DNA of 64,000 nt, from contig JAJZTG010000001.1 of the NCBI GenBank assembly GCA_021849125.1, forward strand, positions 18,392-82,391, written 5' to 3'. The notes below the pieces were generated by a model. That model saw only the letters and a list, made by a program, of their open reading frames with translations, had not been told where the DNA came from and did not search any database. Below, in pieces: positions 1 through 53,282 of this stretch. Origin of the DNA: a bacterium (GTDB taxonomy: Bacteria; Patescibacteriota; Minisyncoccia; Phycocordibacterales; Phycocordibacteraceae). Position 1 is the first letter of the stretch; every line of letters starts with the position of its first letter. Made by a program: the position numbers and the translations under genes.

Positions 1-808
1 CTCCGACACCTTTTAAAAATCCTGGCTGCATAACGATCACGTCGCGCACATCTGCGCCGATACTCTTGAAATATCCTTGCCAGTCGACCTGTGGGACGAG
101 TTTAGAGAGTTTCGGAAGGGTGTACTTGAAGTACGTCTTATCTACGTCGCGCAAGTCCTCCTTGGTCATCGATATCTCGGCAAGTTTCGTTTCGATCGAG
201 AGCACTTTCTGAGTGTCACCTTTAGGATCTGAGGAGAAAGTACCGACTCGTATGATCTTCTCGACATGTTCCAAGTACGCATCGCGTACACGCTTCGATT
301 CCGTATCATCCTTCAGGTAATAATCGCGATCGGGCATCCCAAGGCCAGCCTGGCCGAGGTAGAGGACGTAGCGTTCGCTATCCTTCATATCCTGGTCGAC
401 CATGAGACCCCAGATACCGCCCATGCCGAGTTTCTCGAGCTTCGCGATGGTGGGGATGATATCCTCGGACTTCTTGATCTTATCAATATGCTTGAAATAC
501 GTTTCGAGCGGTGTGAGGCTCAATGCCTTGCGCTGCTTCATGTCCATACCCGAGCGCAGGAAGTCACGCAACATCTGTTCTGGAGAGCCTTTCTTAACCC
601 CTCGCTTTTTCTCGATTTCGATTACCAGTTCATGAAGCTGCTTATCGACCGCGCGACGCAATATCACGAAAGAACCCCACCGAGATTCCTGTGCCGGGAT
701 CGTGTGTCGATTCATCCATCCACCCCCAGCGTGATGAAAGAAATCATCTTGCGGACGAACAGTCTTGTCCATATCTTTCGTGTCAAAACCCCAGTCAATT
801 TTCTTCAT
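1..808 (-). CDS. M13 family metallopeptidase (PepO/neprilysin-like), N-terminal part; runs off the window
   Basis: Manual translation from ATG at 808: MKKIDWGFDTKDMDKTVRPQDDFFHHAGGGWMNRHTIPAQESRWGSF, which is the typical M13 N-terminal 'D.sV.PqdDFf..a.G.W' signature. Absent from the ORF track because there is no stop inside the window. Confidence 0.85.
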   Translation of the reverse strand, partial: MKKIDWGFDTKDMDKTVRPQDDFFHHAGGGWMNRHTIPAQESRWGSFVILRRAVDKQLHELVIEIEKKRGVKKGSPEQMLRDFLRSGMDMKQRKALSLTPLETYFKHIDKIKKSEDIIPTIAKLEKLGMGGIWGLMVDQDMKDSERYVLYLGQAGLGMPDRDYYLKDDTESKRVRDAYLEHVEKIIRVGTFSSDPKGDTQKVLSIETKLAEISMTKEDLRDVDKTYFKYTLPKLSKLVPQVDWQGYFKSIGADVRDVIVMQPGFLKGVG

Positions 809-16869: not shown

Positions 16870-18126
16870 ATGACCCTCGCAGACGAACTCAAAGGACGCG
16901 GGCTCGTAGAGCACGCGTCCGCCGACGTCGAGAAGATTCTCGAGAAGCCGCGGACCGTCTATCTCGGTATCGACCCGACCGCTGACTCGGCACAGGTAGG
17001 CAACCTCGCTGTCCTCCTTCTCATGAAGCGCCTCTCGGACGCAGGCCATAAGCTCGTCTTCCTCGTGGGTGGCGCGACGGGCATGATCGGCGACCCGAAA
17101 GAGAAAGGGGAGCGCTCACTCCTCGACGAAAAGACGCTTGCAAAGAACACGCGCGCTATCAAGACTCAGCTGAAGAGCCTTCTTGGCAACAAGGTGCGCT
17201 TTATGATGGTCGACAACGCTGACTGGCTCACTCGTGTAAAACTCATCCCGTTCCTTCGCGATATCGGCAAGCACTTCACGGTCAATGAGCTCGTGAAGCG
17301 CGAGATCATCAAGAAGCGTCTTGAGACGCCGGATGAGAGCATTTCCTACACCGAATTCACCTACGCGCTTCTCCAGGGTCTCGATTATCTGACGCTCAAC
17401 GAAAAATACGGCGTCGACCTGCAGGTAGGCGGCTCAGATCAGTGGACGAACATCCTCTCGGGTGTCGATCTCGTCCGCAAGAAGAGAGGGCAGGAGGTCT
17501 TCGCGCTTTCGATACCGCTCGTTACTGACGCTTCCGGAAAGAAATTCGGCAAGAGTGAAGGCAATGCCGTCTGGCTCGACCCGAAGAAGACTTCGCCGTT
17601 CCAGTTCTACCAGTTCTGGATCAATCTCCCCGATGACAACCTGGAGACGTATCTCAAAGTCTATACGTTCCTCCCGCTCCCGGAAATCGCGGCGCTCATG
17701 GAACTTCACCGCCGTAATCCAGGCGAGCGCCAGGCTCAGGAGACGCTCGCGCGCCTCGTCACCGAGATCGTCCACGGCCCTGCGGCAGTCGCTCAAGCAG
17801 CAGCAGCTAGCGACGCGCTCTTTGGTCGGATCGCATTTGCCGACCTCTCCCGCGAAGCGCGCGCCGTCGCGCTTGCTGAAGCCCCGTCAGTCACAATTGC
17901 TAAAAAGGATCTCGAGAGCGGCTACTCGCTCGCTGAGGCGCTCGTCACCGGCGGTCTTGCAAGTTCCAAGAATGATGCGCGGCGCCTTATCGAAGGGAAG
18001 GGGGTCTCGCTCTCGGGATTCACGATTGAGAACCCGAATCAGGACCTGCACATGGCCGACCTCCCGGGCGGCTACGCGCTCGTCCGCAAAGGCCGCCAAG
18101 GCGTCCTCATCCTCGTTTTGAAATAA
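16870..18126 (+). CDS. tyrS: Tyrosine--tRNA ligase
   Basis: YLGIDPTADS, QVGGSDQWTNI, KFGKSEG, C-terminal S4-like domain. Confidence 0.97.
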   Translation: MTLADELKGRGLVEHASADVEKILEKPRTVYLGIDPTADSAQVGNLAVLLLMKRLSDAGHKLVFLVGGATGMIGDPKEKGERSLLDEKTLAKNTRAIKTQLKSLLGNKVRFMMVDNADWLTRVKLIPFLRDIGKHFTVNELVKREIIKKRLETPDESISYTEFTYALLQGLDYLTLNEKYGVDLQVGGSDQWTNILSGVDLVRKKRGQEVFALSIPLVTDASGKKFGKSEGNAVWLDPKKTSPFQFYQFWINLPDDNLETYLKVYTFLPLPEIAALMELHRRNPGERQAQETLARLVTEIVHGPAAVAQAAAASDALFGRIAFADLSREARAVALAEAPSVTIAKKDLESGYSLAEALVTGGLASSKNDARRLIEGKGVSLSGFTIENPNQDLHMADLPGGYALVRKGRQGVLILVLK

Positions 18127-18171
18127 AAACAACCGGCGATAGGTTCGCCGGTTGCGTTCTGTTGGACAGGG

Positions 18172-18414
18172 CTAAGGGAGATCTTTGTGTATTTCGTGGA
18201 GCACCTCCTTGGGCATCCGGGCGGTTGCTGCGGCTGCAGCAGACTCCTCCGCGTCGCGTGACAATTGATGCTTCAGGCCTTTAAGGTACCTCAATGCTGC
18301 TTCTTTTCTACGTTGAAACCTCTCGCGCCGTACGACAATACCAATAAGGACCAAAATGCCGGCAATCAATACAACCCACACTACCGGGATGTGGAAGACG
18401 ATTTCGCGGTACAT
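18172..18414 (-). CDS. Small single-TM hypothetical protein
   Basis: MYREIVFHIPVVWVVLIAGILVLIGIVVRR; purine-rich SD upstream; converges on the tyrS hairpin. Confidence 0.5.
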   Translation of the reverse strand: MYREIVFHIPVVWVVLIAGILVLIGIVVRRERFQRRKEAALRYLKGLKHQLSRDAEESAAAAATARMPKEVLHEIHKDLP

Positions 18415-18524
18415 GGTGTGCCTCTCTTTCTGCACTGTTGAATCTGCTGCCAGGATAGCACTTTCCGCCCCACCGGCAATCTGCTACGCTAACCTTGGAC
18501 AACTTAAGTAGAAGGAGTCTGATA

Positions 18525-18713
18525 ATGCCCGAAAAGATTCTCCAAAAGCCCGACGGCACATTCGTACTGCTCGCTGTGCCCAAAGTTGGCATTAACCATG
18601 CCATATCGTGTGCAGAGACACATGCCGCGCATAAAGTACATTACAACGGCACCTGGCCGCAAGGAGTGCCGCCCAAAACGGAGGAATCAAGTATTTGGTC
18701 ACTGTGGCACTAA
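18525..18713 (+). CDS. Small hypothetical protein
   Basis: 62 aa after SD GAAGGAG; terminator cggccccgca..tgcggggccgtttt. Confidence 0.45.
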   Translation: MPEKILQKPDGTFVLLAVPKVGINHAISCAETHAAHKVHYNGTWPQGVPPKTEESSIWSLWH

Positions 18714-18782
18714 TCGACCTCGGCCCCGCAATATGCGGGGCCGTTTTCATTCCTATCTCAAACATGATAATATCCTCTTACT

Positions 18783-18866
18783 GCGTCGGTGGCGGAGTGG
18801 TCAATCGCAACAGACTGTAAATCTGTCGGGCATAGCCCTACGAAGGTTCGAATCCTTCCCGGCGCA
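18783..18866 (+). tRNA. tRNA-Tyr (GTA)
   Basis: Acceptor GCGTCGG/CCGGCGC+A; anticodon arm ACAGA-CTGTAAA-TCTGT; long variable arm; T-arm GAAGG-TTCGAAT-CCTTC. Followed by CAA, not CCA. Confidence 0.97.
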
Positions 18867-18902
18867 CAAACGTACAAAGCCCGAAAGGGCTTTGTACGTT
18901 TG

Positions 18903-19048
18903 TGCGCCGGAGCAGTGCTGGGAGCACTGCGTGAAGGATTCGAAGACCTTGCGAGCATGTTTTGCGATTTCCTGAAGCAAAACATCCGCAAGGTGTACTG
19001 AAGCTGTAAGCTTCGAAAAATGTAATCATGGTCCTTCCCGGCGCACCA
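18903..19048 (+). ncRNA. tRNA-associated structured element (copy 1) with an antisense segment matching tRNA-Tyr and a duplicated tRNA 3' end
   Basis: TGCGCCGG[AGCAGTGCTGGGAGCACTGCGT]GAAGGATTCGAA is the reverse complement of the tRNA 3' 20 nt, split by a hairpin. The scaffold is shared with copy 2. Ends with TCCTTCCCGGCGCACCA. Confidence 0.8.
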
Positions 19049-19051
19049 GCA

Positions 19052-19078
19052 AAAACGAGCGACTAAGTCGCTCGTTTT
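19052..19078 (+). terminator. Intrinsic terminator after the element
   Basis: aaaacgagcgac-taa-gtcgctcgtttt. Confidence 0.75.
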
Positions 19079-19096
19079 GTGTTATATTTGGGTCAT

Positions 19097-20053: not shown

Positions 20054-20158
20054 CCTGCCTTGACACCTCTCCCCTCAGGGCGCATGCTCGTACCCAGAAG
20101 TATCTTGAAACCCTGAGGATACCCCTTGCACGGGCCCTCTTTGGACAAGGAGACGATC

Positions 20159-20704
20159 ATGAGCGCCATTGTTCCCTCAGCAGTAGATCTCAGCCGAGTC
20201 TGGACGTTCCGTCTGGGCACATGCCCCTCCGTAAAAGAACTCCTGGCATCGATGAGCGTAAACAAGATGATCCTTACGCATCGCGCTCAACTATTGCTCA
20301 GGCAAGGGGTGCCTCTCTATCTGACCAAGAAGACAGGGACATTCCGGCTTATGCAGGTTAAAGAACGCGGATTCCCTGACGGCGCGACTTATCTGGAATT
20401 CTGTACCCAAGTCATTCTCGATGGTTACGAATTATGTCCGCCTGAAATCACTTTCCCGTTCCGAAGAACTTTCAAGAACCAGCCGCGGAATCACACTGTG
20501 CGCATCGCCATGGACCCGTTGCACGGTGCAATCCTCGTCAAAGGAATCAAGAATCGTGCCGCGTTCATCCTCGTCGTAGGCAATGGCAATTATGACGACG
20601 TCGAGAAAGCCGGCAAACCCTGGATCGACGCGGAAGATTCTCAACCTGACGATCATTACGGTCCCGAGGACACCTTTCTCGTCATGGAAAAGGGTGCACT
20701 ATGA
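20159..20704 (+). CDS. Hypothetical protein (GF..GAT...ELCPPE...QP...IAMDP family, recalled as frequent in CPR)
   Basis: SD ACAAGGAG before ATG 20159. The family recognition is from memory and unverified. Confidence 0.6.
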   Translation: MSAIVPSAVDLSRVWTFRLGTCPSVKELLASMSVNKMILTHRAQLLLRQGVPLYLTKKTGTFRLMQVKERGFPDGATYLEFCTQVILDGYELCPPEITFPFRRTFKNQPRNHTVRIAMDPLHGAILVKGIKNRAAFILVVGNGNYDDVEKAGKPWIDAEDSQPDDHYGPEDTFLVMEKGAL

Positions 20705-52991: not shown

Positions 52992-53040
52992 CGAAAACCG
53001 CCCTAGAAGGGGCGGTTCCGCATTTGTGACCTCACGGGGA
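52992..53040 (-). repeat. 49-bp direct repeat of the tRNA-Glu 3' end plus its terminator (other copy at 53176-53224)
   Basis: tccccgtgaggtcacaaatgcggaaccgccccttctagggcggttttcg occurs twice on the minus strand. Confidence 0.95.
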
Positions 53041-53170
53041 CCGCGAGTACGCTTATCGATCCTTACAGGATCAGTGCACCTTGCGGATTTTCTGTTCGCT
53101 ATGCTTCAGAAAATGCTCGCAAGGCCTTCGATTCCCCGACGCAGTGTCTCCGAGACACTGCTTGAGGTCA
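53027..53170 (-). ncRNA. tRNA-associated structured element (copy 2) with an antisense segment matching tRNA-Glu
   Basis: TGACCTCA[AGCAGTGTCTCGGAGACACTGCGT]CGGGGAATCGAA is the reverse complement of the tRNA-Glu 3' 20 nt, split by a hairpin; the scaffold is homologous to copy 1. Confidence 0.8.
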
Positions 53171-53210: not shown

Positions 53211-53282
53211 TGACCTCACGGGGAATCGAACCCCGGTTTGATCCGTGAGAGGGATCTGTCCTAGCCGCTAGACGATGAGGCC
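53211..53282 (-). tRNA. tRNA-Glu (CTC)
   Basis: Acceptor GGCCTCA/TGAGGTC+A; anticodon arm GATCC-CTCTCAC-GGATC; T-arm CGGGG-TTCGATT-CCCCG; no encoded CCA. Confidence 0.96.

What the first reader, a model, noticed from the sequence alone, without database searches (positions are those of the whole stretch)
18911..19031. Compensatory base changes between the two copies support a conserved RNA (or ssDNA) fold
Seen: hairpin 1 is GCAGTGCT-ggg-AGCACTGC (Tyr) vs GCAGTGTCT-cgg-AGACACTGC (Glu). Stem 2, CCTTGCG/CGCAAGG, is identical in both and has the same AGC/C internal loop; it is capped by different but paired stems, ATGTTTTGC/GCAAAACAT vs ATTTTCTG/CAGAAAAT. Hairpin 3 is GAAGC-TGTAA-GCTTC vs GATCC-TGTAA-GGATC, so the stem changes in pairs while the TGTAA loop is invariant. 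Inference: selection acts on structure and on specific loop nucleotides, as expected for a ribozyme or a protein-binding scaffold rather than a decaying repeat. Two copies cannot give statistical support.
Basis: partly seen in the sequence, partly recalled or inferred. Interest (0 to 1): 0.78.

Follow-up and report, generated by a model that had tools for sequence, protein, structure and literature searches.

The report
Folded mini-element behind tRNA genes
The paired base changes are real and belong to a small, gene-free, tightly folded element that sits behind many tRNA genes of one family of ultra-small bacteria and carries a backwards and a forwards copy of its own tRNA's tail; it looks more like a mobile piece of single-stranded DNA than a ribozyme, and the enzyme that moves it is still unknown.

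Summary
Observation confirmed and extended. The two window copies belong to a family of ~140-nt elements found in 71 of 151 genomes of the host's family and 0 of 150 other genomes of the phylum draw. In 53 copies not used to build my model, 37 of 45 pairs change on both sides (0 of 500 shuffles reach this). Each copy has an arm antisense to tRNA positions 54-73 and a direct copy of 57-73, both matched to its own tRNA (23 anticodon types), each interrupted by a hairpin. Orthologous empty sites, tandem copies and near-identical cores on different tRNAs point to mobility. No ribozyme family matched. The hairpin-3 loop is a GTA triloop, not TGTAA, which hints at DNA. Best reading (0.6): a non-autonomous single-stranded-DNA element aimed at tRNA T-loops. 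A Y1/HUH transposase is my leading enzyme, but its co-occurrence mostly vanished after a kinship control. No RNA data were available. This scan noted the same class before on other DNA; ten literature searches showed no description.

The parts
18783..18866 (+). Host gene tRNA-Tyr(GTA), intact
   Evidence: ARAGORN, Rfam RF00005 61 bits
18867..18902 (+). Trailer hairpin (terminator-like, GAAA loop); its stem runs on into the tRNA 3' end as a 24-bp perfect inverted repeat
   Evidence: (I4)
18903..18910 (+). Antisense copy of tRNA positions 66-73
   Evidence: exact reverse complement
18911..18932 (+). Hairpin-1 module (A, 8-bp stem with GGG loop, GT) inserted in the antisense arm at the T-stem/acceptor boundary
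18933..18944 (+). Guide: antisense copy of tRNA positions 54-65 (whole T-loop plus T-stem 3' strand)
   Evidence: perfect in 72 of 91 parsed copies
18945..18993 (+). Stem 2 with conserved foot and bulged A and C; variable cap
   Evidence: 97% of cells paired, 11 of 14 pairs two-sided
18994..18999 (+). Conserved linker
   Evidence: several invariant columns in A5
19000..19014 (+). Hairpin 3, 6-bp stem, GTA triloop
   Evidence: loop G and A invariant in 53 of 53; 5 of 6 pairs two-sided
19015..19017 (+). Direct copy of tRNA positions 57-59
   Evidence: third base equals tRNA position 59 in 44 of 46 copies; reads AAG behind a TTCAAG tRNA-Leu (L090)
19018..19031 (+). Hairpin-4 module, inserted between positions 59 and 60 of the direct copy; absent in a shorter subtype
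19032..19046 (+). Direct copy of tRNA positions 60-73 (plus C; followed by CA)
19051..19080 (+). Second terminator-like hairpin, before trpS
   Evidence: sequence, fold
53211..53282 (-). Host gene tRNA-Glu(CTC) of the second copy
53027..53170 (-). Second copy, same modules (antisense 53170-53163, hairpin 1 53161-53141, guide 53138-53127, stem 2 53124-53079, hairpin 3 53072-53058, 57-59 copy 53057-53055, hairpin 4 53054-53041, 60-73 copy 53040-53027)
   Evidence: model R1 148 bits
52992..53040 (-). 49-nt exact direct repeat of the tRNA-Glu 3' end with its trailer hairpin (other copy 53224-53176)
   Evidence: blastn
16870..18126 (+). tyrS, upstream neighbour (context only)
   Evidence: TIGR00234
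19097..20053 (+). trpS, downstream neighbour; follows the tRNA at 38-40 nt in relatives that lack the element
   Evidence: TIGR00233; L353, L360

Best explanation
A non-autonomous mobile element that acts as folded single-stranded DNA and targets the T-loop of tRNA genes. Shown in the sequence: four hairpin modules of the element alternate with host-derived pieces; the 12-nt guide can pair with tRNA positions 54-65 of either the gene or the downstream copy; when it pairs with the downstream copy its last three bases (GAA) are left free and are complementary to the TTC of any T-loop; insertion leaves the gene whole and a second copy of its tail downstream. Inferred: (1) the tRNA-sense strand folds when single-stranded (replication or DNA uptake); (2) GAA docks on a target T-loop and the target displaces the element's own 57-59 copy; (3) an enzyme supplied in trans cuts and joins one strand between positions 56/57 and 59/60, and replication fixes the product; (4) after landing on a new tRNA the guide and tail are rewritten from the target, by fold-back copying or template switching. 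Enzyme, given this model: Y1/HUH transposase about 0.4, the host's single Xer recombinase about 0.25, something else about 0.35. Steps 1-4 were not observed.
For: Mobility: 5 of the 30 closest tRNA-Tyr loci carry a full copy, 1 a different core, 3 remnants (my reading); in L353 and L360 trpS starts 38-40 nt after the tRNA against 230 in the window. 0-15 copies per genome. Exact tandem units of 164 and 170 nt and stacks of different cores. Cores 90-91% identical sit on Glu, Arg and Trp tRNAs; 40 changes of target amino acid among 77 copies. Target matching: 23 anticodon types; the guide follows rare T-loops (TCCGATT in L042, TTCAAGT in L090). Selection on pairing: 7 of 91 guides, on five amino-acid classes of tRNA, read GAGAA, which can form tandem G-A pairs where a copy would give Watson-Crick pairs. 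DNA over RNA: GTA and GGG triloops on the modules, C-GNA-G loops in 14 of 45 short spacers, against GNRA/UUCG tetraloops in 23 of 46 terminator-like spacers; d(GNA) triloops are stable in DNA (PMC3201870, abstract start only). As RNA the guide would out-compete the cloverleaf by 13-14 kcal/mol. Y1 leads: a TIRYT-like Y1 cassette sits inside such elements in 3 of 21 loci (TIRYT consensus from PMC6006769); the foot of stem 2 equals the commonest arm of the repeats flanking this genome's RAYT type (CAAGGT in 8 of 30 loci).
Against: No enzyme is tied to it. No version carrying its own gene was seen among 126 genome hits and 90 metagenome hits (outputs 41 and 91 were cut in the middle, and the searches favour compact copies). 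Y1 co-occurrence (40 of 55 against 22 of 59, OR 4.5) shrank after splitting the genus into two DnaK clades: OR 1.1 in one, 6.9 in the other, pooled p = 0.07; for the own RAYT type pooled p = 0.32. 15 of 55 element-bearing genomes had no Y1 hit. The nested Y1 cassettes differ in place and orientation, truncate the element in 2 of 3 cases, and are missing from this genome. None of 30 loci of the own RAYT type lies beside an element. The stem-2 likeness is post hoc and the arms are in permuted order. The DNA signal is modest: hairpin 3 is mostly closed by T-A, not the most stable pair; G-T pairs are 2.3% in hairpin 1 against 4.0-4.9% in RNA stems; the two strands fold about equally well. Guide and 3' copy each depart from the tRNA about as often (75 and 73 of 1303 positions, some rows mis-parsed), so most copies may be decaying. 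No clearly half-retargeted copy was found. The core tree is poorly resolved (38 of 74 forks open).
Confidence: 0.6

Rival explanations
1. A cis-acting RNA switch: transcribed with the tRNA, the guide traps the T-arm and acceptor strand until the downstream copy is made or a protein binds the core, so controlling tRNA maturation.
For: Same strand as the tRNA in all parsed copies; about half have a short cap and no terminator before the element (45 of 91); two alternative folds 13-14 kcal/mol apart.
Against: Patchy presence at orthologous tRNAs; different tRNA sets in each genome; 35 of 126 copies have no T-arm within 120 nt, several cut off by recombinase islands yet intact; 46 of 91 lie behind a terminator-like hairpin; triloops rather than RNA tetraloops.
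Confidence: 0.13
2. Neutral scars: duplication and fold-back events at tRNA hot spots, with stems kept perfect by template switching, so the covariation is mechanical and nothing is selected.
For: Almost all changes are two-sided with few G-T intermediates; guide and 3' copy decay alike; many remnants.
Against: Invariant unpaired letters (GTA loop, bulge, linker); fixed insertion points of hairpins 1 and 4; recurrent GAGAA variant; a shared core on 23 anticodon types must still be moved by something.
Confidence: 0.12
3. A catalytic RNA: the guide acts like an intron's exon-binding sequence and the core cuts or reverse-splices at the T-loop.
For: Six guide bases pair 5' of the 59/60 junction and the rest 3' of it, the geometry of intron guides (established knowledge); conserved bulge and junction letters.
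Against: No catalytic-RNA family matches the element; no pseudoknot; the base before position 60 is not fixed (GG 38, GT 8, GA 4, GC 2, other 2 of 54); the core is ~70 nt; no reverse transcriptase found in this genome and none linked to the element (OR 1.1).
Confidence: 0.08
4. The stripped attachment region of a larger phage or island that integrates as folded single-stranded DNA through the host Xer, as CTXphi does.
For: Same three-site layout as integrated CTXphi: one working site, an inverted copy and a direct copy ~90 nt apart (PMC3089051 passages); one Xer-type recombinase is present.
Against: No model hit in 61 viral-contig loci picked by a 16-nt pattern; no cargo between the copies; the would-be recombinase arms differ from tRNA to tRNA and one carries a 22-nt bulge; the target is a tRNA, not dif.
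Confidence: 0.07

Closest known systems
REP/BIME elements with TnpA-REP (RAYT), and IS200/IS605 ends (PMC8266576, PMC3333891, PMC6006769; passages read)
   Same: Gene-free folded single-stranded DNA; a bulged hairpin with a purine-rich stretch at its 5' foot; site choice by base pairing; local tandem amplification; Y1 genes common in these genomes.
   Different: No GTAG/GTGG tetranucleotide; the guide is 12-20 nt and differs per target; one fixed target (tRNA T-loop); target tail duplicated; four hairpins; no Y1 gene flanked by the element; enzyme link unproven.
Genomic islands in tRNA/tmRNA genes, T-loop or T-stem/acceptor-junction subsite (Islander, PMC4383910; passages read)
   Same: Whole gene upstream, displaced 3' fragment downstream, often truncated; arrays at one locus; tmRNA also used by a sister core.
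   Different: About 170-190 nt and no integrase (Islander needs 2 kb or more and an integrase); carries an inverted copy of the target; one core serves many tRNAs; a hairpin sits inside the displaced T-loop.
CTXphi attP(+) and other Xer-exploiting elements (PMC3089051; passages read)
   Same: Two inverted target-like sites about 90 nt apart pair in one strand; product has one working and two dead sites.
   Different: Target is a tRNA gene, not dif; arms vary with the target; no phage genes.
Theta (HDV-like) ribozymes beside phage tRNAs (PMC10879173; passages read)
   Same: Small structured element right behind tRNA genes.
   Different: No nested double pseudoknot; core starts 35-80 nt or more after the tRNA end, not within 5 nt; chromosomal; antisense and direct copies of the tRNA.

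Membership tests
HDV-like / theta ribozymes | Nested double pseudoknot with catalytic C in J4/2 | tested here: not met
   Consensus fold is nested, four hairpins; no HDV-like Rfam row at E <= 10. RNAalifold cannot predict pseudoknots; none was evident by eye.
HDV-like / theta ribozymes | Ribozyme 5' end within 5 nt of the tRNA 3' end | tested here: not met
   A 14-45-nt spacer and the antisense arm come first
Hammerhead, twister, pistol, hatchet and other Rfam self-cleavers | Match to the family covariance model | tested here: not met
   None at gathering score or at E <= 10
Any ribozyme | Cleavage or splicing in vitro | not testable with these tools
   Needs bench assay
Group I introns | Terminal G at the 3' splice site, U-G pair at the 5' site, P3-P7 core | tested here: not met
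   Last base varies; guide pairs Watson-Crick at 59/60; no Rfam group I hit on the element
Group II introns / retroelements | Domain V and a linked reverse transcriptase | tested here: not met
   No Rfam hit; no RVT_1 match in this genome, no co-occurrence
tRNA-targeted genomic islands (Islander) | Restored gene plus displaced 3' fragment | tested here: met
tRNA-targeted genomic islands (Islander) | Integrase gene inside, length 2-200 kb | tested here: not met
   170-190 nt between the copies, no gene
REP/REPIN with TnpA-REP | GTAG or GTGG tetranucleotide at the 5' foot of the hairpin | tested here: not met
   Foot of stem 2 is preceded by GAAG or GAAA
REP/REPIN with TnpA-REP | Copies flank a cognate Y1 gene | tested here: not met
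   0 of 30 own-type RAYT loci have an element; 3 of 21 TIRYT-like loci are nested in elements at unlike positions
REP/REPIN with TnpA-REP | Presence tracks the Y1 gene | tested here: inconclusive
   OR 3.4-4.5 raw; pooled p 0.07-0.32 after a two-clade split
IS200/IS605 non-autonomous derivatives | Insertion 3' of a short motif with no target duplication | tested here: inconclusive
   Junction follows the T-loop TTC or TTCGAN, but the tRNA tail is present twice; whether element-borne or duplicated on insertion is unresolved
Xer-exploiting elements (CTXphi type) | Two inverted target-like sites that pair in one strand | tested here: met
   Guide/3' copy helix, 95% of cells paired
Xer-exploiting elements (CTXphi type) | Target is the dif site, with conserved Xer arms | tested here: not met
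   Targets are tRNA genes and the arms vary; the host's dif site was not located

The most novel reading that the evidence does not exclude
A new class of protein-free mobile DNA that programs itself: on reaching a new tRNA gene it writes a 20-nt guide and a replacement tail from the target, keeps its hairpin modules at fixed tRNA positions, and is joined in by a host enzyme (or by its own catalysis) under guide control. That would be natural, retargetable, nucleic-acid-guided insertion with a self-written guide.
Probability: 0.3. Interest if true: 0.9.

Novelty: new variant of a known kind. Interest (0 to 1): 0.68.

Why it matters
About half of the genomes in this family of ultra-small bacteria carry these elements, up to 15 per genome, behind essential tRNA genes, and no RNA or element family that I tested covers them. 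One core retargeting to 23 anticodon types needs a way to rewrite a guide from its target, which known guide-directed elements do not do in this form. The parts are now mapped to the base (toehold, junction window, optional hairpins), so the question can be tested with short oligonucleotides and two candidate proteins from the same genome.

Tried and rejected
Rfam: only tRNA and tmRNA reached their thresholds. Viral contigs: 61 pattern matches, none confirmed by the model; one pattern only. Expression: no RNA holder listed; this is no evidence either way. Laid contigs: one contig of run X1 is identical over 18000-18867 and then leaves the window for 27 letters that were not shown; it could be an empty allele or another strain, so I draw nothing from it. 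Reverse transcriptase (OR 1.1) and large serine recombinase (OR 1.5, p 0.4) do not track the element. The TIRYT-like Y1 as sole mover: found in 17 of 151 genomes, not in this one. The idea that the 3' copy is copied from the guide: where they differ, the copy follows the tRNA (3 of 1303 positions side with the guide). L112 as a half-retargeted copy: its guide does match its tRNA. DNA against RNA folding energies and strand asymmetry did not decide. Literature: ten searches; six aimed at a description of such elements or their enzyme listed nothing relevant by title and abstract start; four fetched comparison papers. The library lacks most subscription papers, and no supplements were read. No full species tree was built; the kinship control is a two-clade split by DnaK identity, with 2 of 114 genomes left out for lack of a DnaK hit.

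Full report
What is there. The window holds two tRNA genes, Tyr(GTA) and Glu(CTC); Rfam finds nothing else at its thresholds. The window lies in a 578-kb genome; named records with the same element are titled Kaiserbacteria, Paceibacterota, Parcubacteria or other Patescibacteria-group names. The Tyr stretch folds far better than shuffles (z = -5.7).

The family. A covariance model from 13 copies finds 7 strong copies in this genome, behind Tyr, Glu, Lys (two in tandem), Trp and two Ser tRNAs. It finds 216 matches in 71 of 151 genomes of the family (54 of 113, 16 of 33 and 0 of 4 by genus, own genome apart) and none in 150 other genomes drawn from the phylum. I fetched about 120 loci, favouring the stronger matches, and parsed 126 distinct copies. 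A metagenome pattern scan gave 90 more distinct stretches. A second core with the same framing lies behind His, Asp, Leu, Val, Ser and tmRNA genes here (my reading), so this core is one member of a wider class.

Covariation. On the 13 seed copies 23 of 37 pairs change on both sides. For an independent test I aligned 53 other full-length copies by sequence alone. RNAalifold returned nearly the same fold, with 35 of 39 pairs changed on both sides. On the 45-pair structure 94.4% of cells pair, no shuffle of 500 reaches any measure, and slid partners pair at 36-47%. Counting on a tree, most changes hit both sides at once. The tool warns that related sequences can beat shuffles without structure, and these copies were found with a structure-aware model; the tree count and the slide control answer this only in part. 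Three refinements: the hairpin-3 loop is GTA, closed by a pair that covaries; there is a fourth hairpin at 19018-19031; and the long closing helix covaries because both strands are copied from the host tRNA.

Anatomy. Of 126 copies, 91 have a T-arm within 120 nt upstream. Each reads: tRNA; spacer (a ~20-nt cap in 45, a terminator-like hairpin in 46); reverse complement of positions 66-73; hairpin 1; reverse complement of 54-65; stem 2; linker; hairpin 3; direct copy of 57-59; optional hairpin 4; direct copy from 60 onward, often cut short near 66-71. The guide is perfect in 72 of 91 copies across 23 anticodon types and follows rare T-loops. The base after hairpin 3's GA equals tRNA position 59 in 44 of 46. 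In the second core, which does not end in TTC, the direct copy also starts at 57. So the right junction lies between 56/57 and 59/60. No guide mismatch was seen at 54-56, partly by construction of the search. Seven guides read GAGAA instead of TCGAA, which would give tandem G-A pairs; a copying process alone would not make that, so pairing itself looks selected (inference). The 35 copies without a nearby T-arm still carry T-loop-type guides; in L032 a serine-recombinase island separates the tRNA from its element.

Mobility. Among the 30 tRNA-Tyr loci closest to the window's, 5 carry the full element; in two relatives with the same gene order trpS follows the tRNA directly. L357 has the element between tRNA-Tyr and a convergent tyrS end that abuts the tRNA in L337, L339 and L347. 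Tandem and stacked copies occur. With the guide left out, cores of 90-91% identity sit on Glu, Arg and Trp genes, and the target changes 40 times on a 77-copy tree, which is poorly resolved. Against ongoing function: guide and 3' copy depart from the tRNA about equally often and independently.

RNA or DNA. The element's hairpins end in triloops (GGG in 99 of 121 parsed hairpin-1 loops; G and A of GTA invariant in 53 of 53), short caps often in C-GNA-G, whereas the terminator-like spacers beside them use GNRA or UUCG tetraloops in half of the cases. d(GNA) loops are very stable in DNA, depending on the closing pair (PMC3201870, abstract start). G-T pairs are rarer in hairpin 1 than in the RNA stems, but only about twofold. 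As RNA the guide would unfold the tRNA's T-arm and acceptor stem by 13-14 kcal/mol (tertiary structure and modifications ignored). No self-cleaving ribozyme or intron model matches the element, the defining features of theta ribozymes are missing (PMC10879173 passages), and there is no fixed terminal G. I read this as moderate support for DNA. No RNA run was available.

The enzyme. This genome has one Y1/HUH transposase-like gene, one Xer-type recombinase, a broken GIY-YIG gene, two serine recombinases and no reverse transcriptase match. Y1 genes co-occur with the element in the genus, while reverse transcriptases and serine recombinases do not. Splitting the genus into two clades by DnaK identity removed the link in one clade and left it in the other, so I count it as weak. 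Two further leads remain. A Y1 cassette with TIRYT-type inverted repeats (consensus in PMC6006769) is nested in elements in 3 of 21 loci, more likely as a later parasite than as the parent. And the foot of stem 2 has the same duplex as the commonest repeat arm beside this genome's RAYT type, with parallel variants, though in permuted order and noticed after the fact. TnpA-REP and IS200/IS605 enzymes act on bulged single-stranded hairpins, choose sites by pairing with a guide at the hairpin foot, and leave 3' ends that can prime synthesis and build tandem copies (PMC8266576, PMC3333891 passages). That chemistry fits; it is not shown here.

Comparison and novelty. It works like a cross between a tRNA-targeted island (PMC4383910), the folded CTXphi attachment site (PMC3089051) and a REP element, and it fails a defining test of each. 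Six searches for a description listed none; I saw listings and abstract starts only, in a library that lacks most subscription papers. Earlier agents of this scan reported the same class in other genomes; those notes are not independent support.

Verdict. Observation confirmed; ribozyme reading not supported; best reading a non-autonomous, tRNA-targeted, folded-DNA element (0.6) with the enzyme and the guide-rewriting step open. Interest 0.68.

Noticed in passing
G000 loci L020, L021, L022, L023, L024, L025, L026, L017: A second core with the same antisense/direct framing behind tRNA-His, Asp, Leu, Val, Ser, Trp and tmRNA; hairpins 1 and 4 are shared between cores as optional modules.
   Followed up: partly
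L383, L387, L394: TIRYT-like Y1 transposase cassettes (224-225 aa) inserted inside such elements, in both orientations.
   Followed up: yes
L487, L532, L510, L093, L070 (own tRNA-Ser GCT copy): A second small insert of about 65-80 nt sits in the GTA loop of hairpin 3, flanked by a 5-nt direct repeat in four of these five.
   Followed up: no
L004, L122, L142, L479, L483, L516, L523, L546: A recurring ~65-nt two-hairpin insert in the linker between stem 2 and hairpin 3.
   Followed up: no
L037:520-760 and L108:120-460: A 5' half of tRNA-Glu followed by an element and then a whole tRNA-Glu gene: the duplication lies upstream instead of downstream.
   Followed up: no
L338; loose end in run X4 at window 18867: The same remnant form twice: tRNA-Tyr end joined directly to the 3' arm of hairpin 3, hairpin 4 and the 3' copy.
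   Followed up: no
L032:7485-13272; L031: Serine-recombinase islands insert at the tRNA 3' end and push the element kilobases downstream; in L032 the recombinase reading frame ends inside the tRNA's antisense strand.
   Followed up: partly
L144:100-480: A tRNA missed by ARAGORN whose 3' half follows a long structured stretch, probably an intron-split tRNA; several 'orphan' guides match this 3' end.
   Followed up: no
G000 loci L027, L028, L029, L030; C1:95146, C5:6721, C5:40708: Other odd repeats behind tRNA-Ile, Gly, Thr, Pro and Met genes, including interleaved duplicates of two tRNA-Gly genes.
   Followed up: no
L033 / L424 (G000:C4:46784-47470): RAYT-like gene with three copies of its own palindrome, one inside the reading frame, and a second palindrome family nearby.
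   Followed up: partly
L035 (G000:C4:6777-6899): GIY-YIG nuclease gene with only a 65-codon open frame, apparently broken.
   Followed up: no
window 20126-20704: 192-codon frame between trpS and the next synthetase gene with no NCBIfam match.
   Followed up: no
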